DNA from: Amphiscolops sp. MND2022
Taxonomy: Eukaryota
DNA: 64,000 nucleotides
Assembly (NCBI GenBank): GCA_964187785.1
Contig: OZ076409.1
Location: forward strand, 24,802,001 to 24,866,000
Direction: 5' to 3'
In this document: positions 30,401 through 60,049 of the stretch, one piece after another
Numbering within the stretch: the stretch's first letter is position 1
Layout of the letters: each line of letters begins with the position of its first letter
The notes under the pieces: model-generated
Seen by the model: the letters and a program-made list of their open reading frames with translations, nothing else
Told to the model about the DNA's origin: nothing
Databases searched by the model: none
Translations under genes and position numbers: made by a program

Positions 30401-33400
30401 AAATCGGACGTTCGGACTGTTATAACCCTGCACTTTCAGACTCAGAACCACTGCAACCACTAGGCTATTTATTCGCCTTGAAAAACAAAAAGTGTAGAGG
30501 GTTGGCGAGGGCCTGGAGTCCATTATCCTGTCTGAAAGTGACCTTAGTATTACTGGTCAATTTTGTAAAAACAATTTTCCACCGTTTCGTCGAACCGAAG
30601 CAAAACTATTCTAGTATTTGGTCAATATTTTATAATGAGTCTTTCATAGAGTTTCAAAGAAAAGATTCGCTGAATTGTTTCCATCACGTTCAAACAATTT
30701 TTCATTGGTTCCAAGGTCAGTGCATGTATTGCGGCAATGCTATTATGCTGGTTGATTCCTAAGGATGGATGAGTGATCTTAATCTGCGTTAAATATTCTC
30801 TTTGAAGAAAAAAACACCGGAGGAAAAGACGATTGAAAAATATGACTGCCTGGGAACGACCCAAATCGCCACCACGCTTCGAGCTCAAATTTCAAAAAGT
30901 TTAAATATTGCCCTGATCCTGTTTGAAAACCTCAAAGTGACGAAAAAGAATTAGGTAAGTGTTGAAGGGAAACTCAATAAACTGACAAGTTTAGAGGATG
31001 AAATAGTGAATTGATGTAGTACGTATAAACCAGGCAATTTTAGCAAATGAATGCTGACAACGGTTTTAACTTTAGACTTTGAGCAGGTATCTAAGTATTC
31101 AAAAGTTAATGTTGTTGTTTACAAATACTTCCTACTCTACAACATCCCCCTTTTTAAATGAGAAAGGGCAATGTCTACTCCAGTTTCATCATAATTTTAC
31201 AGGTTAACATAAAATGACTGCCTTACTGCACCGGTTAAGTTGAGTGTTTTTAGTTGGCGCCTTTTCCTTTAAGGAAAAAATCCCGACCATTACAGTGGCT
31301 AGTTTTTTTTTTCTTTTTTTTCGTCAGACCACAGAGCTCATCGCGTATGTACCACTTTTTACAGAAACTGATAAGACTACTCAGGCCAAGTCAGGCCAAT
31401 GGAAACAGTGCAAAGGGTCCCCCCTTTCATTTTTTTACCTTTTTTACGTAACCTACAAAACCGGAAGAGACCAAAGGGTCCCCCTTTCAATTTTTTTTCG
31501 GCACTGTGCGAAATTTTTTTCGAAATTTTTTTATGGTCTCAAAAGAGTCCCCCCTTCGAGTTTTTTGATATTTTGCAACAGAATGTATGTTAATGAAGCC
31601 CAAAGGGTCCCCCTATTTCATTTTTCGGCACTATGCGACATTTTCGAAGTTTTTTTCAAAAAAAAAATTTTCAAAAAAATTTTCAAATTTTGTTTTGTTC
31701 CCAGGGAAACAGTGATTTTCCAGTCATATCGAGCATGAAAGGCACACTTTGGGTGTCTCGAAAGTGTTTTAAAAGCTTTTCATGAATACGTCCTGAGCAT
31801 ATTTAGAAAACTTTGCGCTTCTTGAGCCTTAGATATAGTGCCGACTTTAGACGTTCCGTCTTGTTATGTTGTGAATGCAGTTATTAATTAGTATTAAAAT
31901 TGAATGGCATCGGTCCTGTTAAAGATAACTAACAACTGTAACCAAATGTAAAAGTAACAAGTTTAGGTACTGTCATTTGTTGAGTTTTTGAAAAGTCTCA
32001 TCGTCATTCTCGGGTTCGCTCTCTACTCGCAATACATCGATTCCATACCGTTTGGTGGGTACGCGATTTCTCTCCAGTACTCGCGTCCTTCTTCATTTCC
32101 TCCTGCCTGCCTCCTCATTCGCTGCATTTTTCGCAATCTCGGGGTTTTGCTTATTCCCTTGGTGTGGCGAATTTTCGGATTTGCCCACATTTTGAATGGT
32201 TGGCTCACAATGGCTTCCGCGCTGCTGGAGGCGCTGTCAATTATTTTCGGGGCTTCATCATCATTTAGATCAATCGCGATCTCGGGGACTGCACTTTCGG
32301 TAATCTTCCTCTTTTTTCCTTTTGCTTCTTTGCCATCTCCGATTAGGAGCTGCTTGTTGTCTCCAATCTCTCTTCTTCTCTCCATGAGCGTTTTTGTTCC
32401 GCCGAGGCCTTCGCGATGTCGTGCTTTGAAACATTCTTTCCTTTGTGGAAATTTCTGGCAGCATTGTGATGGTGCTCTCTTTTACCTTTAGTACTTTGCC
32501 TTTCTACTTCCTGAAAGAAATTATCATTTTCGAGCCTCTCACTCGCTCCCTCACCGACACGGTGGAATCGAGATCGTCCTGAATGTTTGAGGACTGAAAC
32601 ACGAGTAGCAAGTCGCTTCTTGAAATATCCAAAAAATTATTGACTACATTTGAGTTCGCCGTTTTTGGCTCCTTCCCTATCTGCTTCTCAAACGGCGATT
32701 TGCCGTCCTTCTTTTTACGTAATCTTAGCGCATACGAAATTTCTGATAAACACAACTTTTCCTTAGTTAGCACTATCTGCTTGTTTGCGCGAAGTCGCTC
32801 TTTAGTCGTCCGGATTAGTCGCTCAATTTTACCATTTCCCACGTGACCGCGCACTGAGCAGATTACACGATTTATTCCGAACTACTCACAAAATTGCTTG
32901 AACTTTTCGCTCAAATACCGTACCTGGGTCAGTACCTTTTTATCATTTTGGGAACACTGTAATTCTCGACATATTGTTTTAAAAATTCCAACACTTTCCC
33001 CGTCGTTGGTGGGCGTAAAAAGATTTCGTCCGGCCATCCGGAAAAATGATCGATCGACACCAGTAAATATTTCTTTCCTTGTTTTGCAATTTGAAAGCGC
33101 CCCGCAAAATCTAATGCTACTTCTTCGTTTTTTCACGAGTTCCTCTAATTTTTCTCCTTGCATTTGCCTCGGTATACATCTCAAGATTTTACCTGCTCTT
33201 AAGCAGTCGTGTCACAGCCTGGCTTTGTCAATGACTTCTCGATGGATTTTGGGCAACCATATGCTGCTAACTAGGCCGAACATGGCATCCCTGCTCGGGT
33301 GTCCGTAATGGAGCTAGCACATTGGTTGCGGAATAACCATTGCGGTTATCGATATATGAAAACTCACGTTCATCAATTGAAAAGGACTGAAATTTTTCCC

Positions 33401-36400: not shown

Positions 36401-39400
36401 TTTGTTTGCAGGATGTCCATATCCCCAATAAGTGGTCCCTTGGATTCTGCTCAGTCACGTTTCTCGTCAACTCCGTGATGGAAATTGAGTATTTCGCCTT
36501 GATGGCAACTTGAAATATGTCCACCCACTTGTCCCATTCCATCGTTGGTTTAGCATTGGCGTCGTGCCAGAAGTCAGGAAGTCCGACGAAGGAAGTCCCT
36601 CGGGATGTTGAGGAATTTGCTCCTGAATTCTCGGAAGATGTCCCTCGGAGCGTCATGTTGAAGGGAAACTTAATAAACTGAAATAGTCAATTGTGATAGT
36701 AGGTATAAACAAGGCAATTTTAGCAAATGAATGCTCACAACTGTTTTAACTTTAGACTTTTAGCAGGTATCTAATGAAGTATTCAAATGTTAATGTTGTT
36801 GTTTACAAATACTTCGTACTCTACCACAGTAAGCCTCCTTAATTATTGCGCTGATCCTTCCGGGCTCTTTCAACTTCCATGCAATATTAAACCACTGATT
36901 TGACACCTTTTTGCAGAGTTGAAACTTTTTGGGAGAGTTTTGCAGTGGTGAAAAGATAATCATGTTGTTTCTTTTGATTTTCATAGATGACAGAAATTCC
37001 AAATTATTTAAAATGGGGACACTCTAGATTCTTGTGGATGCTGTAGAACTCTGAACGTTCTGTTAACAATAATGATCAAATCTTCAATAAATAAAGCTTT
37101 CAGAGAGCGTCCGTGTGATAAATCTGGAAACTGATAGGAGGGTCCGGAGACGTTTTTGTGTAAACGAAAGAGCCGGTGATGAAAGCTCTATCTTGAAGCA
37201 AATCTTTCTTTTTATATTCATCCTCTCAGAAGCAGTTTCAAACAAACTATTTCAAAAGCTTTTTCCCAAGAACTGGACAACAAAGTGGAACTGTTTTGTC
37301 TACTCTAATTTTTTGTGTGCATCGTTGTCATGCCAGCATGATGGAAATATAATCTACTAATAATCTGTAATGTAAATATTATGTCTTATGTACTTAGATA
37401 TGGGCAATATGATGTCATATAATAAGAGCCATGGTTGTGAGCAACCCTACGTTACTTATACTTAATCCCCATTTCCCCCATGAGTTTGAGTTATATATAT
37501 TTACTTAATACTGAGCGCTCTAGTTCCGGTGTCCGCATAAATGATCTTGCTAAATAGTCTCGAATGTGCTATATTTCATAAATATTGGTTTGTCACGACA
37601 AGGGAGAGAAGTTTTTCGGGTCAAACTGGACCGAGAGATACAAGAGAGACGAAATGTTAACTTCTACTAGCTCCCCGCCTCAGGACTTGTAGTCGTGACA
37701 ACACTTTCATGAAGTTCATCGCTAGTCCATCAGCGGATTTAACGATGAACCCGAATTGACTGATAAATTCATTAGATCCATCAGCGGATTTAATTTGGAG
37801 CTATTTTGAATGAAGTTCATCGCAATTTCATCTCCGGAATTGCAGATGAACAACGATTGGGACGTTAAACTGACTTTTCACCACTAATCCATCAGCGGAT
37901 TTTATGGGACCTTATTTTAGTAATTTCATCTTAAATTCATCGTTGTATTTCATGTAAAGAAATTTCAATGTGCTTCTCATTTCTTAAAGGACAGTAGCAC
38001 ATCCCCTATTCATCTCTCACTAGCATAGAAGGGAAATGAGAAAGTACATCATTAATCCATCCTAAAAGAGAGTGAAAATGCTGGTTATCTGATTTGCTTA
38101 GTAAACCCATCCTTAAATCATCTTGATTTCGTTCGTGCTGAAAATTGACCATTTTAGTGGATGAGTTCATCCTAAACTCATCGCTAAATTGAATTGCCTT
38201 AGTATTCGGTGTTTTAACTGGTGAGTTCATCCTAAACTCATCGCCAATTTGTATTGCTTTGGTATTTGCTGTTTTAACTGACAAGTTCATCTTAAACCCA
38301 TCGCCAAAAATTCACTTGTGCTAGAATTAGCGTTTATCGACTGAATTCATCCCGAATTCACCGTCATTTTAATCTGTGCTAGAAATTGGCAAATTGTACG
38401 TGGAGTTCATCCTTTTATCATCGTCAGTTTAAATTGTGTTGATTTTCGAGCGAGAAAGACCACCATTCATCGCATTTTCATCCAGAGCTAAACTAGACTT
38501 GAAAATCAACAAATATTCTTACAAGTTCATCGCATTTCCATCTTCAATTTTTAAATCATTGGTTTTGGCGCTAGAATCAGCGGAAAACATCGTTTTCCCA
38601 TCCCGAATTGTGCTTTATCTTAAATTGACTTGAAATCAGTGCGTTATTGAATGATTTGAGCTCATTTTAGTTGTTATTGAAACCATGATGCTACGTGCAG
38701 GCAATTGCGACATTGTAAATTGATGACTAAACACCATTAACATATGTAGATGTACCATGATGCGTGGCCACTTTGCGGCAGTTCACAACACCGGTCACGT
38801 GACTTACCATTTTGACACCAGCTGGTAACAGCCAATGAGAGAAGGTTGGTAAGAGATTTAGCGTCTTACCAACCGAAAAGACACGTGAACTGCTGTATTT
38901 TGGACCGCCATTAGCGATTACTCAGACCGAATTGCGACAAGCTACCATCCAGTTGAATAGTTCACGCCAAAAATCTACTTAAAAATATATCTCTATTTCA
39001 TCTTCAGAAACTATAGAACGGAAACTGAGTAATTTCCTTGGTGCATCTACGACTGCGATGAAAATTGGATGAACTTTCCTAACTACCTTGCTAATTTCCT
39101 TCTTCTCACCTAACGACTTACTTGCTTGTACGACTTCATCTCTAAAACATCTCAGTTCAGATTAGTGAATTTGAGATCGAATAGCCATTTAAATCAGTAA
39201 AGTACATCGAAACAGCATCTCAGATAATCCAGTCTTCACTCATAATTCTTTTCTCTCGACTACATGAACCCAGATCAAGGTACCGAACTTAGAAGCGGTA
39301 GAGTCATAAATTCTTCGTCAGAAACATCTTCTCCGACAGATCCAAACATGGCTCAGGCAAACTCAAATGATTCTGACACCAACGACAATTCAGATATCTC

Positions 39401-42400
39401 TTCTCAATTATCTGAAATAAAAGAAAGTTATTAACGCCGAATTAACGAGTTACACCAGGAGTTTAGTCAACTGAAGGACTTAATGATGGCGATTGTAAGC
39501 AAGGACAATAACGAATCTCAGCCGTCTAGCTCAAAAGGTCCTTCAAAGCCGGCCCAACAGCATGGGCTCGACATGGTGACAGGAGTTACAGAAACCCGCT
39601 CCACCCGCCCGACATCAAGTTTCACAAACTTCAGACGATACCAAGAATATGACTCAGACGAAGAAGGCGATTCAACTCCCACAAGCAACGAAGAACGGCT
39701 GTTAAACGCCATCGAGACGATCCCGCAACGCATAAAGAGCACTACAACAAATACAAAACTACTGCAGACACACGTACCGAATTTCAGAGGACAGAAAGAC
39801 AAATTCGTCGAATTTGAACACCTTCTCCTCAACCACCTCAGCCCGTTAGCCAATAAAATAACTGAGGAGAACAAGCTTCATTTCTTTCAAAGCCTTTTGA
39901 GAGACGAAGCAATCGAGTATTGGCAATCGATCCAAATAACACCACTGACAACGCTGAAAGATGTGCTCGATCTCTTCAGAAAAGAATTCGCGAAAGAGGA
40001 CCTTAAAGAGGTAACGCGCTACAAATGGGATCAAGCCCGTTACGATCCCACAACGGAGACATTCAGCGACTTCCTCAAAAACTTGAAAAAGTTGGCGAAA
40101 CAAGCATTTGGGGATGACGCAGATAAAATCATCAAAATGTTCTTGTTCGGCAAACTTCCAGTCGAAATACAACAAGAACTTACAATGGCCAACAAGGAGG
40201 AGAGCTCACCAGAAGAAATCAAGACATACTTGATGAGGAAATACCAATACCAACAGTATGCAGCACCGCCCACGACAATTCAACCATTCAACGCAGTCAC
40301 CTCCTCTATTCCGACGAACAATGAAACAACCAAACCAACAACGACGACGACAACACAACCAACGGAAAGAAAACGATTCGAAGGACAATGCTTCTACTGC
40401 GGAAAGACAGGTCACCGCAAAACGGAATGTCGCGCCCGACAACGTGACGAAGCAAATGGCATCAAGAAAGAAGACGCAATTCCGATGAAGAAAGCAACCG
40501 ACCCAGACAAACCGAAGTACAATCCCAAGCTGGTTTGTCAGATTTGTGGATACACTGGCCACTCCGCAAGAGACTGCAGACGACGCATTCCCAAAGAAAG
40601 TAGCTCTGCATATGGCAAGATCCCTTATGCCACAAATTCACAAGACGACAATAAGGCTAGAAGACAGGACTTGAAACGACAACAAAGACCAATGAACCCG
40701 ATGCAAGCAGTTGCCGACGAAGAGGAACAGATAAGCTACTCTGATGAAGACATTAATCAGGGTTTTTGATTCAGCCACGATTTCCGCCCGCTAGAAATAC
40801 AACGCGCGACACACGACTTTCGACTCAACCGACTACACACAACCGTCCAATGAAGAAATGGCAGCCTTCACTGGACAAACGACCAAAAGCTGACGATGTC
40901 TATCAGCGAAGATTTTCCAACGATGAAAAAGCGATGGGAAATGCACGTCAACACAACGGCAGCCGCTTTTCCCCACTCGCTGAAATCAACGATGAACATG
41001 AGATGAACTGGCAACACAACACCATGAGGCAGGTGGATGAAGCCAAAGAGATGGCTACCAACCATCTTCACCACGACTCGACTTCTAACACAACAAACAA
41101 CAAACGGCTTAGTATTAGAAAACATGCAACGCAAAATAGTATTAACGATTCAAAAGCTAAAAAACATGCAACTAAAACAGAAATTCACGTTCTTAGTCCC
41201 ACTTTACATTTGAACAAGAAAGATGAAATGCTGTACGTCCCTCTTCAGTTTGACAAATACGAAAACCACGCACTGTTAGACACAAGCGCAATTCAAAGCG
41301 CAATGTCTGAAGCAGAATTGCGAAAAATAACAACGGCTCATCCAGAAGCCATCCTTCAAGAACTCCCCCCTCCGAATTTCAAAATTCAAATAGCAAACGG
41401 GAACTTATTCCCAGTGCGTAAGCAAGTCTTACTTAGATTTTACGTTGCTGGAAAAGTCTTTGAAGAAACGTTCCTAATCCTTCCAACAATGGGCACAATT
41501 TTAATTGGAATGTCATTCTTTGAAAAGTACTCAGTCAACTTAGACATAAAAAACCACCTTGTCCACTTCCCCAATCACATGATGTCCATGCAAGTTAGAC
41601 AGCAAAAGAACAAAAGATTCAAAACTGGTTTAATTGATTTGTGTTCCAGTACTAGAACAGTGATCCCTCCTCTCCATCAAGTGATGATACAGGTCCACAG
41701 TGACGCGGACATCTCACTTACAACTGGTACAGTTGAGGGCTCACCTGGATTCATGCGAAAGACGTGTTTGCTTGTTTCCCCAGCTTTGGTTGACCTAGAT
41801 GAGGGCAAGACGACAATCCAGGTCACCAACCCGAACAACCACACGTTCACACTTAATGCCAACACCACTCTGGCACACTTTCGCATACCGACACCACATC
41901 AGGCGGCAAACATCACACCCATGCCAGTCGAACACTTGAACTTGATCACCAAGTACCCAGATGAGGCGGAAGCGGTGATCAACCAACTGTTCGTGAACCC
42001 TGAAATGAAGTCAACTAAGTGGTACCCAACTCCCGAGACGTGCAGTGAGCCACACAAACTCAACGCAATTGAGCGACGAATCTATGATGAGATTATGGCA
42101 CTGCGAGAGCTCGAGAAGCTTGACCCGTCCCAATCCGATGAACAACGGATGAACTTCCTGAAGAACTTCAACTGGGACGACTCGCTTCTTACTCCGTCTC
42201 AACGGTTACAGGTAGAGGAGTTGCTGGTAAAGTACAACTCCATTTTTGCTAGACATCGTTTTGATATTGGTATGAATACTGATTTTAAAGTTAAGTTAAC
42301 ACCCCAACATGAAGAACCTGTTTATTCACAAAGTCTCCCTACTCCGACAAATTTGAAGACGATTTGCTCGTGGAGTTAGCCTTAATGCAAGAGTACGGGA

Positions 42401-45400
42401 TTATAACTACCTTGCCTCACAGCAAATACTCTTCTCCGATGTCTGCTCAACGTAAACCTAATGGTAAATTGAGGATTTTAGTTGACCTGAGAAGAATAAA
42501 CCATCTCATCAAAAACGATTACGGTGAGCACAACCATCCCGTAACAACAATTGCTGACGCTGCCCAACACATGGCCGGGAAAAAGTACTTCTGTAGACTT
42601 GATTGTTCCCAGGCCTACCATTGCATTCCAATGGCCGATGAGCAGTCTGTCCAACTGTTATCGTTTAATTTTGGTTCTAGAACTTTTGCCTTTTTACGTC
42701 TAGCACAGGGTCTTAATCGTTCTTTGTCAGCATTTACAAGTGTAGTTCGTGAGTATTTGGACCCCTTGGTCAAAGCAGACCGGTGTGCTCAATATGTTGA
42801 TGACATTGGAATTGCAGCACACACCCCTGACGAACTGATTAATAACCTTGAACTTGTTTTTCAGCAGTTGAACAAAGCTGGTCTTAAACTTAGCATGAGT
42901 AAATGTGAATTTGGACAAAAGCAAATTGAGTACTTGGGCAAAACTATTTCTAGCACCGGTATTGCTCCCATTGAAAAACGCGTAACAGACTACTTGACCA
43001 AGTTGAAACCCCCCAATTCAGTGAAAGCGTTGCAACGTTATCTTGGTTTTGTAAACTTTTACAGGTCTTATATTCCCCGCCTAGCTGATAAAACTTGTTG
43101 TTTACAGGAATTGATCAAGAAGGACGTCCCTTTCAAGCTGAGCCAACAACACAAAGATGCTATTTTTGAAATCAATGAAAGTTTGTTAAAAGCAACAAAA
43201 GTGTCTCTGAAATTGCCATTACCTGATAAACAATTGGTAATCATGTGTGACCCAGCGAACACGCTGCCGGCTATGTTTTGTTAATTGAGGATTACGCTGA
43301 CCCGTCAGTCAAACAAACATACGCCCCCGTTGCATTTGGCTCTAAGAAATTTCAGGGCGGCCAGATGTCTCTAACAATGTATGCCAAAAAGTTTTTAGCT
43401 ATGTACTTTGCCTTCGATGAATTTGGCCACATTTTGTGGGGTGCGAAAAAACCCATCATTGTTATGACTGACAATAAGGCCTTGACTAGATTTTTCCAGG
43501 CGAAGCATATCCCGCCTTCATTTTGGAATTTTTGCGATCAAACCCTTCAGTTCAATTTTTTATTAGCACATGTACCAGGAATTGAAAATCCCGCAGCGGA
43601 TTACTTATCTCGTTTTGAGATTAGACCTGAAGACCGTGTACATTTAAAATTGACTGATACTATTCCAATTCACAGAATCGAGTTCGACATCGCCTCCCGA
43701 ACACCAAAACAGGAAGAAGACGAGCCTGATTACTTTCCCACGAGCGAACCACTCAGATGCAAGCGCCAGAAGGTTGTCAAAGAGATGAACTTGGCACCTG
43801 GCACTGACGTGGCTCATGACGGTGGGAAAGGGATGAAGTTCACCAACTGTGAGAGAACAGCGGCCTCAGATGACTTCGCGACTGACAACCATCTGACGTA
43901 CCGCCTCACAGACGTGGACGAGCCGATTCAACTCTCGCAATTCATCCGTAAAGTATCATTATCACACCCGGTAATGAGTCAGGTTAGCCCCGCTGAGGGG
44001 ATCGATCTAATTCAGGTCCAGAAAACTAACTGGGTTATTCAAAAAATGATTAGATTTTTAGAAGGTACTGAAATTTTGCAACACCCAGTTAGTATGCAAG
44101 ATCAGTTTTTTCAAAAGTTGCACAAAAATCGAAAACGCCTAAAAGTTGTAAACGGTGTCTTGTACAGACAGTTTTTTGATCACACGGGACTGGAGTCTCA
44201 CAAGCAGTTAGTTGTTCCTGAAGACTGTATTTTGAAAATATTTAGGACTCTACATAACAGCTCGGTACAAAGACACCCTGGGTTAAAGAAAATGTTGTAC
44301 GAACTTCGTAAACGATATTACTCTCCTAACTTAGCCTGTAAAGTTCAAAAAGTCCTTGACGGATGTGAAAACTGCAGGAAATCTAAAAGTGTAAAAGAAA
44401 CGCAACTACGTCCACCGTTACAAAAAATCTACGACCCGTGCGACGGACCAGAAGACCTGTTGGAAATAGACATCGTTGGTCCACTCCCGGCGTCGAACAG
44501 TTTTACACACATTCTGACGGCTGTTGACGTTTTCTCACGCTACCTGTTCGCCGTTCCGCTGAAGAGACCTGATACACATTCCGTAGTCAGAGGATTACTG
44601 TCGATCTTCACGAAACACGCGTATGTTCCCAAGCACATTCTGACGGACAAGGGCACGGCGTTTACGGCTGAACTTCTGTCTGAAATCGCGAAAGCGGCTG
44701 ATATTCACATCTCCCATGCCACGATGAAGCACGCACAGACAATAGGCATGGTGGAGAGAACGCACGCGAAACTGAAAAAGATCCTTAAAATTAGTGTAAA
44801 CGCAGACAGACCACAATGGGACCGCTATGTCGACATAGCAATCATGGCCCATAACACAACTTACCACGACTCACTGAAATGATCACCAACTGAAATTTTC
44901 CATGGCAGAATACCGTACAACACACTAGACCTGCAATTCCGAAACGCAAACAAGCCGGCTGAAACAAAGTGCAAGGACGTGAATGAAATTCTAGACAAAA
45001 TGAACTTCATCTTCAGAGACAATCTAGACAACATCATCTGCGCCTATCACAAGTACAAAATGTACGATGATAGAAAAGCACGAGCACAGCCACTGAAGGT
45101 GAATGAATTTGTGTTCCTACTAGGTCCTAAGTACGACTCTCAGAGAAGCAAAGAAGAGTTTAAATCTTTCCATTGGAAAGGACCGTACAAGGTGATGAAA
45201 GTGCTATCCGATAGCAACTACATCTTCCGCAAAGTAGGCACACACTAGACTCAGTGCGTACACAGAATGCGAATGATGTTGTTCAAACCGGAATTTCCGA
45301 TTGATGACATCAACGTGTCCAAACATCTCTACCCAGACACTGAAAGGGTTGAAGACACGGACATTTTCGACTCGAATATTCCGACGACCGACGAAGTAGA

Positions 45401-48400
45401 TCAGAATGAGAATGACAATCTAGATCAAGACTTAGTCGAAGAAGAGCCTTCAGAAGAAATAGTTCCGCAGGTACAAGAACGACACAGTCCACAAGTAATT
45501 CCACCAGAAATAACCACGAGAATAGACTATCAGCAAGTAGAAACTGACCACAACAAATTTAGACCACCTACAGTTAGATTTGGAACGCAAGAGGAAATTA
45601 TTCTACCGCCCCCCCCGCGATGAAAGTAGGATAAGATTACCTCTGAGAGACGAACAACACGAAAATCAATCACAACAGACAAACACGCAAACTGAAGATG
45701 AGGAAAGGATGAGTTCTAGACCGTCTAGAAACAATCAGACTAGGTACAGGTTACGCGAGAACCCTACACCGAAAACATATCCTGATTTCCTCATTCATGA
45801 GATTACTGCAGCTAGAAACGCACTGAGAAAGACTAACAAAGTAGACGTAACGATTTAGCCACGAAAAACCACATTTCCAAACACACGATGAGTTACGGAT
45901 GAAAATTCACAAAAACGAGTCAATTACATGCAATTTCAACTTAAAACGAACATGAAGATGTAAAATAGATGAACAATCACTTAAAACTACATGAAATACG
46001 CAAAACAAAACGAAACACGATGTAAAACGGATGAAAAACGACCAAAAAACCAGAAAAACAACACATAAAATTTTGAGATGAAAAAAGGATGAAATCACAT
46101 GAAAATTTATCTCAGACACACGAGAGATGAAAAAGTGATGAACTTAGTCGAAAATTTGACCAATCAACATGCAATATTTACTAGCGATGCATTGGAGATG
46201 GAAAATGCATCATAATACAGGCTAGAGGATGAAATAGCGATGAACTCGATTCAATTATTCAGAACTTACATGAAAACAATTAATGATATGAATTTGTGAT
46301 GGAAACTACCATCAAATCGTGACCGACTTTATCGTTAGCCTGACACGATACTCTAGCTTCGCTGGAGGATGTCAAAACGATGAATTTAGTCTAAATGGAA
46401 GTTCGAAAATATTAAATGACTTACGAAAACCTCCTTGTGATGGGAAACACCATCCACAAAACATCACAATAAATCAGCTAATTCCCAAACAACATGTAAC
46501 TCCACGAAACGATAAAAAACAGCCGACTTTATTTCGAATCACGCAAATAGAATTATGTCAGACAAAAATGAAATGATCAATACATGTAAGCTTCAAAGAC
46601 CTGCCAAATCAATGACGTCACGAAAGAAATTGACAAATCTAAACTACATGCAATACAAATGAGCAACATACGCAAATATACATGTGCCGTTTAAAAATGA
46701 ACGAGATAATATATGCAATTCACACCAAAGCCATACAAACCTAGACGAAAAAAAATGAAACAAACAATCGAAAATACATGAAGCCTACTAATTTACATGT
46801 AAAATATAAGAACTGACGAAACATCCACAAAACGAATAAAGGAGTGAGCCCCCCCCCCCCCCCCAGTGAACATCAGTTCATAACATCATAACAAGCAAAA
46901 TACCCCTATCGAAAAGCCAAAAATGTTCCTTCGTGCTGGCTGGCATTTCTCTGAAAAGAGTGCTGGTTAGTTGAGGCGGGGAGCTCACAACCATATTCGG
47001 ATGAAGCTTGCTGCGTTGGTTATCCAGCGGCTAGTGGATTCTCAGTTAGTTTTGTAGGGGCTTTGTGACGACAAAGCCCTGTCCAAATGAACGAAAATAA
47101 AAACACCAAATTAAAATACATGAAACTAACACCGAACATATAACAACATGTCAATAATGGGGCAACCCATTTAAAGGAATACATTATGAAAACACGCGAA
47201 CATGAAACCACACAATATCACAAAATTTAAAAATTCGAAACATGCAAAGCCGTAGATGTCAATCACCCTGATTGATCAGATTAAACGTCAAATGGACAAA
47301 CCCATTTCGACGTCTGATGACAAACAACCGACCGTAAAAAATAACATGAAGACTATATATAGCTCAAAACTGAGAGATTTCATTCATCTGAAAGGAGCGG
47401 AGCAGCTCCACTCACCCAGCTCTGGATTGGTACCTCAAGTACCTTGCACGCCTACGGGGTACCAATACCATTGCTGAGTGAACATCTCTTCGACTGCCAC
47501 GCAAGCGGCGGTCACAAGAGTCCGGAAAATGATTCATGCAATGATGTTCAAACTATGACAAATCCGAAACGCAACGAAAATGAGTATAACACATGTACAC
47601 TAAAATTCATGCAATCTCGACAACCTGACAAACGATCAACACCATATAACACTAAAATACATGAAGAAAACACTCCGAAACCACCGCAAAGTTGATAAAA
47701 TACCCTCATCCACTATGAAAGACGCAATCCTCGATTACGTTATAGCAAAATAAACACGAAAACACGCAAAATAAATATTTTCCAAAATTACGATGAAAAG
47801 AAGATGAACTATGCAGCAAAATGAGCAAAAATTCGACAAGTCAAAACTTGCGATGCAAAAACGATGAACTACAGCAAATAACTCGCCAAAATGATAAAAT
47901 GAAAACGCAAGATGAAAAAACGATGATCTATGTAGAAAAACCACATGTAACAACATGCACTGATTCACATATAACGAGCGATGTAAAAAAGATGAGAAAA
48001 ACAGTTTTCGCGACATCGCTCGGCCGACTGAGGAAAACGTGATGAAAATGAGATGAAAAATCAAAACGAAGCACTGATTATCTAACTACACTTACACGAG
48101 ATGTAATAACGATGAACAACATGACAAAACTCTCCTACAAATTCTATCAACTGAAAAGTGATGTGAAAGCGATGACCAATGAAAACACAGAGCCGCCGAT
48201 TTGACGCAACCTACCAAATGAACTTAACCAGTGTGAAACTAATTGAACTCTACCTGCATTCCCACTCACTATTAACTCAAGAGAAAAACAATTTCGGGTG
48301 CCAAATATTTAACTTGCACATAGTACACTGCCGATTTTTCCGACGCAGCGCATTTCTTCTTCTCCTCTCATGTCACTTAATGCGACATATAAATTGGTCA

Positions 48401-51400
48401 CCCATTTGCTAGATACAATACTATAACATACAGTAAAATAAAATAACATGAAAGATACAACAGTTTCAAATAAATGTGAACAAAGTACAGGCGTTAAACA
48501 CCAATTTCTGGACTAGCAGGCCGCTCCCCGTTTATGCTGTACCCCAAGTTTGAATATAAGCGCAGTCTATAATCTTCGCCAGCCACAACCCCAATGTCGT
48601 CCCACAACATACTTTCGGTCAGCTCGTTGAGATCGACTAAGCGCCGGTGTGACTCTGCAACTTCGTCTAGAAGAGGACCACTCACACTTTCATAGCTCCG
48701 AATACTGCTGGAAGAAAGATAGCTCACGATAATGGCACATACACCACTCGTTACGTCGCTGCTTAAATGGCCAACTCCGTCACACAACAAAGTATTGTTA
48801 CTCTGAATGCCTCAGTCCAAGCAAAATATACTTCGCAATAAATTCTGGGCACCTCGATTAGTACAATAGCACAGGAGGTCCAACACCGACAGATTCATCG
48901 CACTTCCGGTCGCCCCAGAACCACGTCGATAGTAACTGATGAATTCCAGGAAGCCACGTTCCATGTGTCCTTGCTCTGCATACGAGATTCGGCATAACTC
49001 AACAAGAAGATCCGTAAATACCCGGATTTCGGCCAACAGGACATCTTCAGGAACAATATTGAGACTTGGGAGACTGAACACACTCCGAACAAAGGACACA
49101 TCATCCCGGACTCCTGGCAATGCGCTGACATTTTTCATGACAGTCAAAATGAAGACTGGCACTCGGGACATATCTTCATCATAAAGACATCCGCCCACAT
49201 CCACTTCATTATTGGCAAGAAAACTGTCAATCAGGACTTGTTGTTTAACCTCGGAGATGGCATAACTCTCCACGTCCACGAACAACCAGGAACGCGTATC
49301 CGATGCTGCTGGCAATCGGTCATCATCAACCAGAGTCGACATCAGTTCTCTTATGAAACTGGCACTTTCCACCGCCCAGTAACAACTGCGTACTGAAGAG
49401 GCACCAAAACTCTTCTCGTAGGAATTCACCACTGAAACATTAAGGTACAATAAATTCCACATGCAACTTGTATGACCACCCCCCCCTCACACCAACGAAA
49501 ATAACAACCCCACAATAGCCCATCTAGAAGTGACCCGACAAGACTCCAGCAGGAATATAACAATTACTAACGAGCACGGTAAACTAGACTGAGCGCCTGT
49601 AGCCTGATTGGAATCCCAATCTCTGCTCGCAAGGTCAGGTCAAGTGTGTCCAATGGTCCATCTCCACTGGTAAATCGCAACAGACACACAATGTCAGCCC
49701 AGTTACTCCTCAATTCCTCGCACACATCAGCGAGCGTCCACACAAATACCTCACCAGAAAGAATCGCCTAAATTGTAAATAACATCGTATTAATTAACTG
49801 CATACATTATGAAGTTCACTACAAATCCCCCCTTCAACACTCCGTTCACACATTACTACACATAGATACCATCACATCAGGAAATCATACGTACTTGCAG
49901 CAAATGCGGACACGCCAACAGCAAAGGATCCTTCACGAATCCTTTCAAGCGCTTCTGAAGATGGTTAAGAACCACATGGATATCAGTCCCACCAAGCACT
50001 TGACCAGCCACATCCACGATCGTCCGACTGACATCCGACAACGTGAAGGGTTTTACGTCCACGAGGCCAACCCCAGTGGTGCTTCGGAACAGTCCACTCA
50101 GCTGCGGCAACGCATCACAGCACAGTCCAAGTGGAACAGGCTCTCCGAGCATGCAACACCACATGTTTACCAGCCAAGTGATCACTCGACCCTCCTAGTC
50201 ACGAGCCAGATTAAAGCAGAAGACAGTGTAGTGACTAACTCCGTCCATGCCACACACTGCGACCGTACCAGTCACTCGCCCACCAGTCACTGTCAGATGG
50301 AAACTGCTGTACTCACTATTGCTCCAGATGGTAATCAGTCTCCGCATTACGTACGGCCACAAGCCAAGCAGAACAACGCTCTAAAATCAACATAAGGTCT
50401 TTCGAAACCATACATCATAATATTATACCGCCCCCCCACCCTCCATTTCAATAGTAAACAATAGAAAATCCATACTAAATCGAACGTAACAGAAAACGCA
50501 AAATCAAATTTCTCACCATCACGTCGGACAACGCGCAAGTTGCCCCAAACAAGACCGCATGTTGGGGATCCGACGACACCAGCACTTCCCACAAATTAGC
50601 AACTCCACTAAATTGACAATCGCGGTACAGAGCGTCGACCACGAAGCATACAAACAAGCGCACAGTTTTTTCTGGCCAGTCTTCCCCCTCTTCGTCTTCC
50701 GCCCACACTGGCTGCCCAGCCCCCTCCAGTTCTAATACTTCCAAAACACTGAGTGACGGACAAGTCTCAATGAAGGGTACAATCACCCCACCTAAGTTCG
50801 CACGACACTCGGGGCTCTCTTCATTCGTCATGAGCGTTCCATCACGTCGCCGCAACGGAAGCCCACGGTGTACACGGATCACACAATCCTGACGGTGATG
50901 ACGCAGTCCTCGGCAATGTTCCATAAAGGTGGTAATGCCTCGGCTGCCCACCTTAACGTCTCTCTTGCACATTAGGCATCACACATAGGACATGCGCGAC
51001 TCGTGATTGCGTGCATATCCTAGCGCCAGACCGCAGTATGGATGATCAAACCATCCGGACTTGATCACCTTCTTTCCTGATAATCACAACAAAACACTAA
51101 AAACAAAAGTAACATCATTACAAATCATCATAGACAACGACTAAAATCATCTGTCACACATCCGCAAAATCGAAAAATGCAAAAGTAAAACGTAAAAATC
51201 AAAAACGTTCACCCGGAGTGATGAAAACATGATGTAAAATAATATTTTCATTGGAAATATAAGCGAAAACGAAGAAAAAACTTAACGATGAAAAAGAGAT
51301 GTAAACTGAAAAGAAAACGACGAAAAATAGCTAAAAGACGGGCGAAAAAATTTAAGGATGTAAAAGAGATGGAAAGTTCTAAAAAATGACCAGAAAAGAA

Positions 51401-54400
51401 AAACGCTATATTCAAGACTTTTGACGATGATAAAATGATGAAAAATAGAAAATCGCAGGAAACTAAATAACGAGAAACGGTAAACGATGGAAAATAGATG
51501 AATGCAAGCGGAAAAGAAGAAGGACGTAAAAAACGCTAGTGAAAGTGTAAACGAAAAGAGAAAAGAATAAAAGCTACCGATCAGATACTTCACAGGGTTA
51601 AAGCTGTTTAGGTAACCTGGTAAGCGAGACGCAATGGGCTCGTCGTCGGAGTCCACCGGACTGGGTCCCATGGGAGACGTCTCAGCAGACACAGGAACCA
51701 GACCGGGAACAGCACCTTCCGGAGCAGGCTTAGCGGACAGAGGATCACCAGCAGGGACATCCTCGACTGCCTCAAGAAGGAGCTCAGTGCTGTCAGTTGA
51801 TGGCACGTCAGACTGCTCAACGTCAGCCTCCACAGTTTCAGGGACGCTAGCAGCTGGCGAAGAGGGAGCAGCCGAAAGAGTTTCCACAGGAGGATCGTAA
51901 TCCGTGGAAGTCTCGCCAGTTTCCACAACGGCCTGAACGGACTGGTCAACAACAGCCACGCAGGCATCGACTGCCACATCCACAGGAGTGACGACGACAC
52001 TGATTCCTGCGTCTACAGTGACGCGAGTAAGAGGAAGAGGACTTCTAGCCGCAGATTCACGGTCCAGAAAACGCTGAAAATTCGGCGAAAGTACGGACAC
52101 TAGAGCCTGCGCCACTGGGGAGCTAACTGCATCCAAACAGAGGACCTGGAGAAAAGAAGACATCTCCAACGGAGGAGGCGCCACTTGTGTGCCGGCATCA
52201 ATCTGGGATGCAACAAAATCACTCGTCCCTATACCCACTGAGTAGGAAATAGGACGAGGTCTTGGCGCATGGATGGGAGTCGGGCCTGAAAGAAGAAACA
52301 ATAATCAGATGACGACGATTGGAGAAGAAAGAGCGCGTACGCCGCGCGAAGAAAGAAGACCGGAGAAGAATTCATCTGAAAATCATCTTCAAAAATGGAA
52401 TTTGCAGTGAATCAGTCACGAAGGACTGTGAATGTCCATGACACATCCTAAATTCATCTTAAAAAATGAGTTACACGGGTAACCGACCGCAAAGGGCACT
52501 ACATGAAGATGAGATGTTTATATCGGAATCACATCGGAGTGTCCGGACGATGCCCTAATGTAGATGGAAAATGAAAACGTGGTGCCAACTCACTGTATTG
52601 TTGAATGCTGTCTCGCAGCATGTCCTGCATGTGGCGGTCGTACCACCCGAAAGTGATACTCCCGAGAGAGGCATACCAAGGGTAGTGATCTAAACATCAA
52701 ACGGAAAGAGTCTGCGTCTGAATAAATCAGAGATGAGGAACGAAGGGATTTGTAGACTGAATTGAAGATCTGGGAGGATAGAACTTACACTGCGGAAGGT
52801 ATGGGACATTAGGACCCTGACCGAGCTGCTGATCAGGATTAAACTGGAGTTCAGGTGCTGCTTGCTGAATTACTGGAGACTCTTGGGGCGGCAGGGTCTG
52901 AAGATTGGTCAACTCGGAGATGATACCGACAGAATGGACTGAGTCCGCTAAAGGCAAGACGTACTTTCAATACCTAATTGTCCCTAACCCGTTTTTGAAG
53001 AAAACAAAATTAGTGCACTTACCTTCTGTGGCCTCGGTCTCAGGTAATGAATAGATGGAGTGAATGTCAGACATCGTGTAGGATTGCAAAACAAACAATC
53101 TGAAAAGGAACGGAAGAGAGTGAAGAAAGGAACGAAATCGAAGAATCTGAAGACAGGAATTTGATCAGTAATTAAATGGCCTGATCAACCATGATTGCGG
53201 GATACAAACTCACGTGAAAAATCAAAGAGCGCGAATGCAGCTTGAGTGCCAGGACAAACCAAATACTTGAATTCAGAAGATGAAAAATCGATGAAAACTC
53301 TCCTATTTCAATGACTGACTACACTTTTCTTCCCAGTTACAACCAACGCAAATTTTCTCTGAAAATGGATCGCCCTCTCCTAGAATTCGACTACAAAAGC
53401 TTCAAGTATTTGATTTGATGACAGCTGCCAGTCTCAGATCAATGCCGATGAAGTTGAGCGGAAAACGCGCAAAAGAAATCGTGGCGATTTTCAAACCGAC
53501 ATAACTAGAGATGATTCATGGATGAGAATGTTTGCTGACGACCGGTTGGATTTCCTCCAGTTCAGAAATTTCAGTTTTCAGCCAATCAGATTTAGCAGTG
53601 ATTGATATGGCAACAGTTCATCTCTCTCTCATCGCTGAGAAGTCAGACAGCGGAAGTAGCTTCAACGGTTGCTATGACAACAATTCATCTCTTTCCTATC
53701 GCGAAAACTGATAATAGAGCAACGGCGCCAGTCGTCTGCTAAATCAACATCGATGTCTCGCTGTGTAAACAATTCATCGTTCATTCATCCCTGACTCGCT
53801 GCCACCTTATCAATAAAGCTAGTCGAATTGTTTGTTCAGTGTAGGCGTTTTTGGAGGGAAACTTTTCTCCGAGAAATCAGCTTCTACCGAAAATAACCAG
53901 CCGAAACTCCCATCAAAAGCATGACAACCAATAAAATGCAGATCAGCGGACATTCGATGGGCCAAGAACTAGAGTTGCCGCGTCGAAAAAAGTTAACCGA
54001 AATCACCCAGCATGAAGCCAGATATGACGATTGCCGAAGGTCCTCTTCTCAGAGAAGTTTTACATAGGACAGAACAAACGAAGGACATACCAATTCAGAA
54101 CTAACGAAGGTCATTTTCTCCCCAACCGAACGAAGGAAGCAGTCGAAGCCAACGCCGAGACAACCATCCTCTGCACATTTGGCCCTTGCACTCTCAATCC
54201 AAATCCCACCCCGGGGAGTGTCATGCCAGAATGATGGGAATATAATCTACTAAATATCTGTAATAAAAATATTATGTCTTATGTACTTAGATATGGGCAA
54301 TATGATGTCATATAATAAGAGCCATGGTTGTGAGCAACCCTACGTTACTTATACTTAATCCCCATTTCCCCCATGAGTTCGAGTTATATATATTTACTTA

Positions 54401-57400
54401 ATACTGAGCGCTCTAGTTCCGGTGTCCGCATAAATGATCTTGCTAAATAGTCTCGAATGTGCTATATTTCATAAATATTGGTTTGTCACGACAAGGGAGA
54501 GAAGTTTTTCGGGTCAAACTGGACCGAGAGATACAAGAGAGACGAAATGTTAACTTCTACTAGCTCCCCGCCTCAGGACTTGTAGTCGTGACAACACTTT
54601 CATGAAGTTCATCGCTAGTCCATCAGCGGATTTAACGATGAACCCGAATTGACTGATAAATTCATTAGATCCATCAGCGGATTTAATTTGGAGCTATTTT
54701 GAATGAAGTTCATCGCAATTTCATCTCCGGAATTGCAGATGAACAACGATTGGGACGTTAAACTGACTTTTCACCACTAATCCATCAGCGGATTTTATGG
54801 GACCTTATTTTAGTAATTTCATCTTAAATTCATCGTTGTATTTCATGTAAAGAAATTTCAATGTGCTTCTCATTTCTTAAAGGACAGTAGCACATCCCCT
54901 ATTCATCTCTCACTAGCATAGAAGGGAAATGAGAAAGTACATCATTAATCCATCCTAAAAGAGAGTGAAAGTGCTGGTTATCTGATTTGCTTAGTAAACC
55001 CATCCTTAAATCATCTTGATTTCGTTCGTGCTGAAAATTGACCATTTTAGTGGATGAGTTCATCCTAAACTCATCGCTAAATTGAATTGCCTTAGTATTC
55101 GGTGTTTTAAGTGGTGAGTTCATCCTAAACTCATCGCCAATTTGTATTGCTTTGGTATTTGCTGTTTTAACTGACAAGTTCATCTTAAACCCATCGCCAA
55201 AAATTCACTTGTGCTAGAATTAGCGTTTATCGACTGAATTCATCCCGAATTCATCGTCATTTTAATCTGTGCTGGAAATTGGCAAATTATACGTGGAGTT
55301 CATCCTTTTATCATCGTCAGTTTAAATTGTGTTGATTTTCGAGCGAGAAAGACCACCATTCATCGCATTTTCATCCAGAGCTAAACTAGACTTGAAAATC
55401 AACAAATATTCTTACAAGTTCATCGCATTTCCATCTTCAATTTTTAAATCATTGGTTTTGGCGCTAGAATCAGCGGAAAACATCGTTTTCCCATCCCGAA
55501 TTGTGCTTTATCTTAAATTGACTTGAAATTAGTGCGTTATTGAATGATTTGAGCTCATTTTAGTTGTTATAGAAACCATGATGCTACGTGCAGGCAATTG
55601 CGACATTGTAAATTGATGACTAAACACCATTAACATATGTAGATGTACCATGATGCGTGGCCACTTTGCGGCAGTTCACAACACCGGTCACGTGACTTAC
55701 CATTTTAACACCAGCTGGTAACAGCCAATGAGAGAAGGTTGGTAAGAGATTTAGCGTCTTACCAACCGAAAAGACACGTGAACTGCTGTAATTTGGACCG
55801 CCATTAGCGATTACTCAGACCGAATTGCGACAAGCTACCATCCAGTTGAATAGTTCACGACAAAAATCTACTTGAAAATATATCTCTATTTCATCTTCAG
55901 AAACTATAGAACTGAAACTGAGTAATTTCCTTGGTGCATCTACGACTGCGATGAAAATTGGATGAACTTTCCTAACTACCTTGCTAATTTCCTTCTTCTC
56001 ACCTAACGACTTACTTGCTTGTACGACTTCATCTCTAAAACATCTCAGTTCAGATTAGTGAATTTGAGATCGAATAGCCATTTAAATCAGTAAAGTACAT
56101 CGAAACAGCATCTCAGATAATCCAGTCTTCACTCATAATTCTTTTCTCTCGACTACATGAACCCAGATCAAGGTACCGAATTTAGAAGCGGTAGAGTCAT
56201 AAATTCTTCGTCAGAAACATCTTCTCCAACAGATCCAAACATGGCTCAGGCAAACTCAAATGATTCTGACACCAACGACAATTCAGATATCTCTTCTCAA
56301 TTATCTGAAATAAAAGAAAGTTATGAACGCCGAATTAACGAGTTACACCAGGAGTTTAGTCAACTGAAGGACTTAATGATGGCGATTGTAAGCAAGGACA
56401 ATAACGAATCTCAGCCGTCTAGCTCAAAAGGTCCTTCAAAGCCGGCCCAACAGCATGGGTTCGACAATCGTTGACTATAGATCTAGTATAATAATGTAAT
56501 ATAGTATAATATAATGTAATTACGAATCAAGCGAAGGCTCAGAAAACATTTTCCAAGAAGATGATCAATTGATGACTACGATTTTTAATGATTTTTTTGC
56601 ATGTAATTATTATGCAAAATGAAGTGTTCCAAGATTTTGATATACAAACGGTAAAATTGAACCCCTCTATAGCTATGTCTCATTCAAAAACTGAACCTAG
56701 TTTCCCTTTCATCCCTACAATTGCCAAAATTTACACGAGTCAAAAAGTCCGGAGAAGCCTGAAATTTGTATTTCAAATTTCTGAATTGAACAGACTTCAC
56801 TTTAGATTTTTTTTTGCATATTCTTTTATTATTATTTGATCATTTTATACACTACATTTAGACTATAAAGTAAAAATGGAGTCGTCTTTTATCAAAAAGA
56901 GGTTCAAGATTAGCGGCTTCTTTGTAAGAGGGGTCATGTCACATGTTATTCGCATGATTTATAAATCTCTCTGCCCCGAAAACATTAACGTTCTGTCACT
57001 TCACAATGCCCTTGCTTTTACCGCTAAGTCATTGCACTTAGCTCAAATTATCCCCTATCGATCGGCCCGTGGTGTTAAAGAACCTTTTTTGTGTAACTGT
57101 TGTGTGTAGTATTTAAATTGGCGTTAACACTGTTAAATTCCCTTTATTGTAGCACAGCTGTATGACCAAAAAAGGAAATAAAAGCGGCGAACCTGCATTG
57201 TAACTGTGAGTGTGTCATCTTTTTTAAGGGTGACAAATAAACAAAGCTCCTCTTTGGGACCAATTATAGGTGTGAAGTGTCGGGATCTGAATTTGGGCCG
57301 TAAGGCATCGTCCCTCATGCCATAATCTACATAATCGTAATCTAGAGGGGTCTTAATCTCGGGTTTTCCGCCTTCTTTGCCTTCGTTTGCTTGAACTAAG

Positions 57401-59942: not shown

Positions 59943-60049
59943 AGAATAGAATAGAATAGAATAGAATAGAATAGAATAGAATAGAATAGAATAGAATAGA
60001 ATAGAATAGAAAAGAATAGAATAGAGTAGAATAGAATAGAATAGAATAG
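59943..60049. repeat. (AGAAT)n microsatellite
   Basis: About 21 near-perfect pentamer units. Confidence 0.97.

What the first reader, a model, noticed from the sequence alone, without database searches (positions are those of the whole stretch)
37717..53789. GATG-N7-GATG motif is highly enriched, helically phased and found in non-coding DNA
By eye there are about 17 copies per LTR and about 26 in the internal region; a rough estimate for 8 fixed bases in 19 kb is under one by chance. Half-sites are 11 bp apart (one helical turn) with an A/T-rich core. Unit spacings are mostly 58-62 or 67-70 bp, while flanking sequence is poorly conserved. Orientation is mostly CATC on + in the LTRs and GATG on + in the three internal clusters. 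This pattern favours selection on double-stranded DNA binding geometry over simple satellite expansion.
Basis: seen in the sequence. Interest (0 to 1): 0.85.

Follow-up and report, generated by a model that had tools for sequence, protein, structure and literature searches.

The report
Retrotransposon with self-binding DNA arrays
A 19-kb jumping gene carries 50 copies of a paired DNA word set in helically phased A/T-rich arrays, plus a backwards gene, predicted to be spliced, for a likely zinc-finger DNA-binding protein, which probably recognises those arrays to keep the element switched on.

Summary
GATG-N7-GATG occurs 50 times in the non-redundant element against 0.64 expected, and once in 44.9 kb of host DNA; other spacers give 0-4. 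It lies in a Ty3/Gypsy element (37326-56466) and avoids coding DNA. New here: dyad-to-dyad spacing is quantised at 10.0 bp, and the linkers carry AA/TT tracts in one shared phase across five clusters, while flanks outside one LTR array have diverged to near background. The element also carries a predicted seven-exon antisense gene (about 1055 codons, broken in this copy) with a BED-like zinc finger (weak Pfam and PDB support); eight dyads lie in its introns. In relatives sharing the finger's predicted recognition helix, intron read-through peptides fit the motif 12 times against 0.68 expected, often 69 nt apart; distant fingers give 1 against 0.86. Best reading (0.55): the element's own protein binds these arrays, like plant VANC/TnpA systems but in a retrotransposon. 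Binding, expression, hAT-transposase origin and anti-silencing are untested. A host factor (0.22) is the main rival.

The parts
37321..37325 (.). 5-bp target-site duplication, left copy (ATCGT)
37326..39573 (+). 5' LTR, 2248 bp, TG...CA; 23 differences from the 3' LTR; TATA-like run at 37492
37717..38602 (-). LTR dyad array, 13 exact copies, all GATG on the minus strand; 38108-38588 is a 60-bp tandem with phased AA/TT linkers
39057..39219 (.). 3 dyads near the LTR 3' end, mixed orientation
39348..40769 (+). gag, starting inside the LTR, two CCHC knuckles; broken by a stop near 39432 in this copy; no dyad
39574..39591 (+). primer-binding-site-like TGG stretch directly after the LTR (tRNA not identified)
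40757..45623 (+). pol: protease-like region (by eye), dUTPase-like (weak), RT, RNase H, integrase; broken by frame changes near 42340 and 43260 and stops near 44880 and 45246; 4 dyads, two of them 69 bp apart in the N-terminal stretch (40922, 40991)
45697..46465 (+). internal cluster 1: 9 dyads on + and 1 on -; phased A tracts, the strongest 10-bp signal in the window
45926..48450 (+). 23 single ACATG words on + (3.8 expected from mononucleotide shuffles), in and between clusters 1 and 2
47792..48174 (+). internal cluster 2: 7 dyads, spacings 59-69, downstream of the antisense gene
48494..49431 (-). antisense gene, predicted exon 7 (312 codons with the stop), helical domain conserved in homologs at 58-96%; internal stop at 48814
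49491..49767 (-). predicted exon 6; stops at 49569 and 49566
49895..50380 (-). predicted exon 5, alpha/beta-looking region resembling a decayed RNase H-like transposase core by eye only; stop at 50197
50517..51076 (-). predicted exon 4: BED-like zinc finger (C-x2-C...H-x5-H) followed by a helical region; stop at 50981
51077..51616 (-). predicted intron 3 with 6 dyads (51148-51500); 12 of its 14 GATG half-sites are in dyads; donor is a weak GTTACC
51617..52285 (-). predicted exon 3, Ser/Pro/Val/Asp-rich, likely a disordered linker
52286..52788 (-). predicted intron 2 with 2 dyads (52373, 52444)
52789..53074 (-). predicted exons 1 and 2 around a 49-nt intron; frames do not join as modelled (broken or mis-modelled)
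53279..53789 (.). 4 dyads upstream of the antisense gene, mixed orientation
54208..54218 (+). short purine-rich stretch before the 3' LTR (weak polypurine tract)
54219..56466 (+). 3' LTR with 17 exact dyads (54610-56112)
56467..56471 (.). target-site duplication, right copy (ATCGT)

Best explanation
The GATG-N7-GATG arrays of this Ty3/Gypsy element are likely binding sites for a protein that the element itself encodes on its antisense strand, a predicted BED-type zinc-finger protein probably derived from a DNA-transposon transposase, and that protein would keep related copies transcribable. Steps: (1) shown: the dyads, their non-coding placement, the 10-bp quantised spacing and the phased A/T linkers; (2) shown by homology: a conserved multi-copy antisense coding region with splice-shaped borders; splicing and expression are predicted; (3) weakly supported: the finger is BED-like; (4) inferred: two fingers read two GATG words one turn apart, each followed by A/T as reported for the Hermes BED site, and a multimer holds the A-tract-curved array, since the GATG words sit about half a turn from the A tracts, facing the inside of the bend; (5) inferred by analogy with VANC and TnpA: binding in the LTR, the gene's own introns and its upstream region excludes nucleosomes or silencing and acts in trans on the family. 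Self-repression or insulation by the same protein is not excluded.
For: Enrichment 50 against 0.64, element-specific. Non-coding placement, with 8 dyads in the antisense gene's introns and 4 upstream of it. Spacing periodic at 10.0 bp: R 0.69 for 22 internal spacings, 0 of 3000 jitter controls reached it; p 0.014 on 21 distinct values; Rayleigh p 0.005 on the 18 left after removing 58-62 and 120. Linker AA/TT tracts phased at about 10.4 bp with phase 6.0-7.7 in five clusters of either orientation (p from <0.0005 to 0.024). Antisense gene: 37 homologs of exon 4 at 45-95% identity in clusters of up to 84 members, with conservation ending at the predicted splice sites; 14 homologs of exon 7 other than the window's own. 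zf-BED hit in 12 of 34 members at E<=1, best 0.002; top PDB hit of the deeper profile is the ZBED2 BED finger, E 0.08. Upstream intron read-throughs of 15 near-clade homologs hold 12 peptides compatible with CATC-N7-CATC against a shuffle mean of 0.68 (max 5 of 2000; other spacers 0-3), also at 42-44% exon identity; 20 far-clade read-throughs hold 1 against 0.86. Paired signatures lie 69, 69, 69 and 66 nt apart, matching the 67-70 spacing of intron 3 here.
Against: No binding, expression or chromatin data. The BED hits seen with scores are below Pfam's cut-off (12.8-14.9 bits against 20.6). No transposase domain was detected in exons 5-7 by Pfam, PDB sequence or Atlas searches, so the transposase origin rests on by-eye pattern and domain order. 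The homolog evidence is back-translation of peptides, not DNA; the 12 hits come from 6 proteins in about 4 subfamilies, so they are not independent; many far-clade read-throughs are short (11 of 20 under 30 residues) or run into the previous exon. Motif and gene could travel together simply because both belong to one element lineage. It is not known that far-clade genes sit in LTR elements. Spacing periodicity leans on two modes (60 and 70): with both removed n=9 and p=0.11. LTR cluster a and the 13 scattered dyads show no linker phasing (p 0.21, 0.18), and one host stretch scores as high for 10-bp periodicity (20.6 against 22.6).
Confidence: 0.55

Rival explanations
1. The arrays are docking sites for a host dimeric or tandem-finger transcription or insulator factor. 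The element accumulated them as enhancers; the antisense protein does something else.
For: LTR enhancer arrays for host factors are common (established knowledge). All geometry results fit any double-stranded DNA binder. A second word, ACATG, is also enriched, which may point to more than one factor.
Against: 1 dyad in 44.9 kb of host DNA and 0 of 260 host half-sites on the left flank in dyads. Arrays sit in the introns of the finger gene and track the finger clade. I recall no host factor with this site (recalled, not searched).
Confidence: 0.22
2. The arrays are a protein-independent chromatin element: phased A/T tracts, like nematode PATCs, that bend DNA or position nucleosomes and protect from silencing, with GATG a by-product.
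For: Phased AA/TT tracts in linkers of five clusters. PATC-rich introns prevent germline silencing (PMC7725773, passages).
Against: Bending needs no invariant 8-base dyad; the cores are kept perfect while flanks drift. Not exclusive of the best reading.
Confidence: 0.08
3. The gene and arrays are relics of an hAT-like DNA transposon nested in the retrotransposon; the dyads are its subterminal repeats and have no role for the retroelement.
For: BED-like finger; hAT ends carry many short same-orientation BED sites (PMC10368747, passages). Clusters flank the gene on both sides.
Against: No terminal inverted repeat with an 8- or 9-bp duplication brackets the gene. Arrays also lie in both LTRs and in the gene's introns. 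The gene is conserved in frame over many diverged copies.
Confidence: 0.08
4. The motif acts in RNA (packaging, export, or pairing of LTR CAUC units with internal GAUG units).
For: LTR and internal arrays are in opposite orientation, so they are complementary on the genomic RNA; the LTR arrays lie downstream of a TATA-like run.
Against: Cores differ between copies; 10-bp phasing of A tracts is a double-helix property; both orientations occur within clusters; no Rfam match.
Confidence: 0.04
5. Neutral satellite expansion of a 60-bp unit followed by decay.
For: 60-bp tandem in the LTR; modal spacing 60.
Against: Flanks near background while 8 of 8 core bases survive, with few one-mismatch copies; motif retained where introns no longer align.
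Confidence: 0.03

Closest known systems
VANC/VANDAL and TnpA/Spm sequence-specific anti-silencing systems of Arabidopsis (PMC5735166, passages; bioRxiv 10.64898/2026.08.24.746577, abstract, passages and section 8)
   Same: Element-encoded accessory protein; short motif dense in non-coding DNA including the protein's own intron; same-orientation clusters; tandem-repeat origin; family-specific motif. TnpA is reported to derive from a transposase.
   Different: Those are plant DNA transposons acting against DNA methylation. Here the carrier is an LTR retrotransposon, CpG is not depleted (observed/expected 0.91-1.0), the protein has no VANC-type Pfam domain, the site is a spaced dyad with phased A tracts, and binding is untested.
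Retand/Grande plant Gypsy elements (PMC11963269, abstract and passages)
   Same: Long pol-3'LTR region with an antisense ORF for a predicted DNA-binding protein, plus repeat arrays of unknown function.
   Different: Retand carries TRP28 (PF04195) and is confined to flowering plants; no TRP28 here. Here the gene is predicted to have seven exons and a BED-like finger, and the arrays share one motif with the LTR.
hAT transposases such as Hermes and their BED-bound subterminal repeats (PMC10368747, passages)
   Same: N-terminal BED finger reading a 4-base word that must be followed by A/T-rich DNA; many same-orientation sites; a multimer engaging several sites.
   Different: No inverted termini or 8-bp duplication around the gene; no detectable catalytic or C-terminal dimerisation domain; direct dyad at 11 bp rather than a quasi-palindrome.
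BEAF-32 (PMC5021357, passages)
   Same: BED-finger multimer binding clusters of a short word (CGATA), with insulator and promoter roles.
   Different: A host gene; no fixed spacing rule reported, whereas spacing here is strict.
C. elegans PATCs (PMC7725773, passages)
   Same: Periodic A/T clusters in non-coding DNA, linked to escape from silencing.
   Different: PATCs are host-wide and I recall no embedded fixed dyad; here the tracts are locked to a specific motif within one element family.

Membership tests
Ty3/Gypsy LTR retrotransposon | Direct LTRs with TG...CA ends and a short target-site duplication | tested here: met
   2248-bp LTRs, 99% identical, 5-bp duplication
Ty3/Gypsy LTR retrotransposon | gag then RT, RNase H, integrase in that order | tested here: met
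   Pfam zf-CCHC, RVT_1, RT_RNaseH, Integrase_H2C2, rve; RT closest to foamy-virus and Ty3 RT among solved chains. Protease seen by eye only.
Ty3/Gypsy LTR retrotransposon | Placement in a named lineage by RT phylogeny | not tested
   No reference set was available; one search found no relative in viral contigs
BED zinc finger | C-x2-C...H-x(3-5)-H/C ligands with upstream aromatic residues | tested here: met
   W8, F9, C33, C36, H53, H59/H60 invariant or nearly so in 25 sequences; the pattern itself is recalled
BED zinc finger | Score above the Pfam PF02892 cut-off or a matching fold | tested here: inconclusive
   12 of 34 members hit at E<=1, best E 0.002; the scores shown are below cut-off; ZBED2 top PDB hit at E 0.08; the model has low confidence over the finger
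hAT transposase / hAT transposon | RNase H-like core with DDE triad | tested here: inconclusive
   No profile hit. By eye exon 5 follows the strand-helix pattern but lacks the expected first Asp and CxxH (pattern recalled); exon 5 was not folded
hAT transposase / hAT transposon | C-terminal hAT dimerisation domain (PF05699) | tested here: inconclusive
   0 of 14 exon-7 homologs hit it; model pLDDT 45
hAT transposase / hAT transposon | Terminal inverted repeats with 8-bp duplication around the gene | tested here: not met
   None found for 11-bp arms with up to 2 mismatches
VANC/TnpA-type anti-silencing system | Element encodes an accessory protein besides its mobility genes | tested here: met
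   Conserved multi-copy antisense coding exons; expression not shown
VANC/TnpA-type anti-silencing system | Short motif dense in the element's non-coding DNA, same orientation within clusters, rare outside | tested here: met
   (outside tested on 44.9 kb only)
VANC/TnpA-type anti-silencing system | Motif changes with the protein between subfamilies | tested here: inconclusive
   Indirect peptide signature present in near clade, absent in far clade; no DNA of relatives
VANC/TnpA-type anti-silencing system | Protein binds the motif and derepresses copies in trans | not testable with these tools
   Needs binding and expression experiments
VANC protein family | VANC domains (DUF1985, DUF287) | tested here: not met
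   No such Pfam hit in exons 3-7 or homologs; it may work like VANC but is not a VANC
Retand lineage | Antisense ORF with TRP28 (PF04195) | tested here: not met
   No hit
PATC | High score under the published PATC algorithm | not tested
   Only my own 10-bp periodicity measure was run

The most novel reading that the evidence does not exclude
An LTR retrotransposon lineage of a probable animal host captured a DNA-transposon transposase, kept its BED finger and multimer scaffold while losing catalysis, and evolved helically phased dyad arrays in its LTRs and introns that wrap around this protein to block silencing in trans, with finger and motif changing together between subfamilies: a VANC-like self-recognition system in a class I element.
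Probability: 0.3. Interest if true: 0.88.

Novelty: new variant of a known kind. Interest (0 to 1): 0.74.

Why it matters
Sequence-specific self-recognition and anti-silencing by transposon proteins is documented, in the papers I read, for plant DNA transposons; for retrotransposons with long 3' regions, antisense genes and repeat arrays the function is stated to be unknown (PMC11963269). This element supplies a candidate protein, a sharply defined site (GATG-N7-GATG, A/T core) and a spacing rule in one package, so the open question becomes a direct binding test. If true, it shows a class I element turning a class II protein into its own regulator, and gives a natural series of finger variants with which to read a BED recognition code. 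Four full-text searches returned no such system; the motif string itself was not searched, and subscription journals are not covered.

Full report
1. Observation. The motif is real. In 37717-53789 there are 50 exact GATG-N7-GATG dyads, 27 on + and 23 on -, while every other spacer from 0 to 20 gives 0-3. In the 16.9 kb non-redundant element the count is 50 against 0.64 +/- 0.81 in 300 dinucleotide shuffles, and 44.9 kb of host DNA holds 1. Among all 4-mer direct dyads at spacers 0-20 it ranks first by a wide margin; inverted arrangements are not enriched. The profile is R-N-GATG-WWWWW-NN-GATG-AA-C/A-T. Exact counts are 16 in the 5' LTR, 17 in the 3' LTR and 34 internal. One-mismatch copies are barely in excess (27 against 14-24 at spacers 5, 6, 8, 9), so the cores are held nearly perfect.

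2. The carrier. The region is a Ty3/Gypsy element at 37326-56466 with 2248-bp LTRs differing at 23 positions, TG...CA ends, an ATCGT duplication and a TGG primer-site-like stretch. gag begins inside the LTR and has two CCHC knuckles; pol carries RT, RNase H and integrase in Gypsy order with a weak dUTPase-like hit. Both genes are broken in this copy. [quoted passage not shown] The host is a eukaryote, likely an animal (RPC5 exon), without CpG depletion (0.91-1.0); it was not identified.

3. Placement and geometry. Dyads per kb: LTR non-coding 7.9, post-pol spacer 5.9, antisense introns 5.3, antisense upstream 3.9, pol 0.8, antisense exons 0.3, gag 0, host 0.02. Flank identity within internal clusters is 0.315-0.338 against 0.299-0.320 expected from composition; only the LTR array 38108-38588 keeps clear tandem similarity (0.38 against 0.28; period 60). 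Neighbour spacings in one orientation are periodic at 10.0 bp (R 0.70, n 35; 0.69, n 22 internal; 0 of 3000 jitter controls; p 0.014 on 21 distinct values). Removing 58-62 and 120 leaves p 0.005 (n 18); also removing 67-73 leaves n 9 and p 0.11. The linkers, with the dyad excluded, carry AA tracts at about +28, +38 and +47 (0 of 2000 shuffles for 21 internal sites), continuing the peaks at +7 and +17. The phase is 6.0-7.7 in five clusters of either orientation (p <0.0005, 0.016, <0.0005, 0.024, 0.0025), and absent in LTR cluster a and 13 scattered sites (p 0.21, 0.18). A window-wide scan puts cluster 1 first (22.6; host median 3.2, 95th percentile 7.8), but one host stretch near 29.8 kb reaches 20.6. 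From established DNA geometry, phased A tracts curve DNA, and GATG words half a turn from them present their major grooves to the inside of the curve. That suits DNA wrapped on a sequence-reading multimer; it is an inference.

4. The antisense gene. The minus strand from 53074 to 48494 holds seven candidate exons, about 1055 codons, with GT-AG introns of 49, 503, 540, 136, 127 and 59 nt. Phases agree from exon 3 onward; exons 1-2 do not join as modelled, the intron 3 donor is weak, and stops fall at 50981, 50197, 49569, 49566 and 48814. Exon 4, read with X at its break, has 37 homologs at 45-95% identity in clusters of up to 84 members, all from ENA assemblies; conservation starts and ends at the predicted splice sites. 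Exon 7 has 14 homologs besides the window's own. At least 15 contig lengths are shared between exon-4 and exon-7 homolog tables (read by hand), as expected for one multi-copy gene. A profile scan reached 108 proteins, down to about 20% identity; near and far clades align with probability 98%. Exon 4 begins with W/F...C-x2-C...H-x5-H; 12 of 34 members hit Pfam zf-BED at E<=1 (best 0.002), and the deeper profile's best PDB match is the ZBED2 BED finger (E 0.08). These are weak, concordant signals. The roughly 700 residues after the finger follow, by eye and from my recall of hAT transposases, a helical domain, a strand-helix core without the expected catalytic residues and a helical tail, but no search confirmed this.

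5. Link between gene and motif. Eight dyads lie in introns 2 and 3 and four upstream of the gene. No DNA of relatives could be fetched, so I used predicted proteins that read from intron 3 into the finger exon, counting peptides that can be encoded only across CATC-N7-CATC. Among 15 distinct read-throughs (583 residues) of the clade sharing the RGI(T/S)TF-type helix there are 12, against a shuffle mean of 0.68 (max 5 of 2000) and 0-3 for spacers 1, 4, 10, 13, 16; among 20 of the far clade (1036 residues) there is 1 against 0.86. Read-throughs under 15 residues and proteins without a recognisable finger were left out by the script. The hits come from 6 proteins in about 4 subfamilies, including ones at 42-44% exon identity whose introns do not align to ours; paired signatures are 69, 69, 69 and 66 nt apart, and 69, 81, 72 in P0065. 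P0065 (57% exon identity) has an intron that does align to ours, so some sharing may be recombination. The evidence is indirect and cannot separate a functional link from shared descent.

6. Mechanism. I commit to the element's own protein as the binder (0.55). For Hermes, the BED site is a 4-base word that must be followed by A/T-rich DNA, and a multimer engages several same-orientation sites (PMC10368747, passages); each GATG here is followed by A/T. For VANC21, motifs are dense, same-oriented, non-coding, found in the VANC intron and spread by tandem repeats (PMC5735166, passages). A 2026 preprint reports that TnpA derives from a transposase and that transposases become regulators on losing catalysis (10.64898/2026.08.24.746577; abstract, passages, section 8; the passages returned show no occurrence of 'retrotransposon'). 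By analogy, the protein would bind LTR, intron and upstream arrays and keep copies open in trans. As CpG is not depleted, the opposed silencing would more likely be histone- or small-RNA-based. The same protein could instead repress or insulate. Rivals: host factor 0.22, protein-independent PATC-like structure 0.08 (PMC7725773, passages), nested DNA-transposon relic 0.08 (no termini found), RNA-level role 0.04, neutral satellite 0.03.

7. Comparison and novelty. It is a Ty3/Gypsy element. It works like VANC/TnpA if binding holds, but is not a VANC, not a Retand (no TRP28; PMC11963269, passages) and not an hAT transposon. BEAF-32 is a host precedent for BED multimers on short-word clusters (PMC5021357, passages). 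One further preprint (10.1101/2024.04.02.587720, passages) mentions anti-silencing factors only for DNA transposons in the passages seen. Searches found no retrotransposon with a BED-finger antisense gene and cognate arrays; the literal motif was not searched, no supplements were read, and preprint supplements are closed. Verdict: new variant of a known kind, interest 0.74; boldest reading probability 0.3, interest 0.88.

Noticed in passing
window 45926-48450 +: 23 ACATG words on + (mostly ACATG(A/T/C)A) against 3.8 expected from mononucleotide shuffles and 8 on the other strand; they fill the dyad-free gap between clusters 1 and 2 and may be a second site or a variant half-site.
   Followed up: partly
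window 39348-39573: gag starts about 225 bp inside the LTR and reads across the primer-binding site; with a TATA-like run at 37492 and AATAAA at 39416 this would imply an unusually long R region.
   Followed up: no
window 41630-41880 +: Weak dUTPase-like domain between protease and RT (Pfam E 0.008).
   Followed up: no
window 40922-41005 +: Two dyads 69 bp apart overlap the poorly conserved N-terminal stretch of the pol frame, so the array rule also holds in coding DNA there.
   Followed up: partly
proteins P0236, P0241-P0250: A far-clade finger gene in 15 copies at 94-100% identity on different contigs, hence recently mobile; whether it sits in an LTR element or a DNA transposon is unknown.
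   Followed up: partly
proteins P0143, P0146, P0158, P0192 and their clusters: Distant homologs on short contigs from ENA, JGI and Logan suggest the gene family occurs beyond this one assembly.
   Followed up: partly
window 5610-6293, 8542-8899, 13355-13546, 18595-19523, 22257-22727, 26367-26734, 31247-31694: A dispersed host repeat family in both orientations with AAAGGGGACCCTT-type words, including a 24-bp tandem of 13 copies at 5977-6293 and a 122-bp tandem at 26412; it looks like non-autonomous DNA elements.
   Followed up: no
window 29500-30200: Host stretch with strong 10-bp A/T periodicity (score 20.6) but no GATG dyad.
   Followed up: partly
window 10628-12517 +: 629-codon low-complexity Ser/Glu/Lys-rich open frame without Pfam match, probably a large host exon.
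   Followed up: no
window 1018-1539 +: Host RNA polymerase III subunit RPC5 exon (Pfam E 2e-29).
   Followed up: yes
window 56560: One dyad 94 bp outside the 3' LTR, the only host copy; within chance expectation.
   Followed up: yes
window 59943-60049: (AGAAT)21 microsatellite.
   Followed up: no
L129 (CP188088.1) 3001-4622 and L108: Unrelated 69-71 bp tandem arrays that contain GATG-N7-GATG in a Buchnera chromosome record and a Beijerinckiaceae bin; flanks are conserved, so these are ordinary tandem repeats.
   Followed up: no
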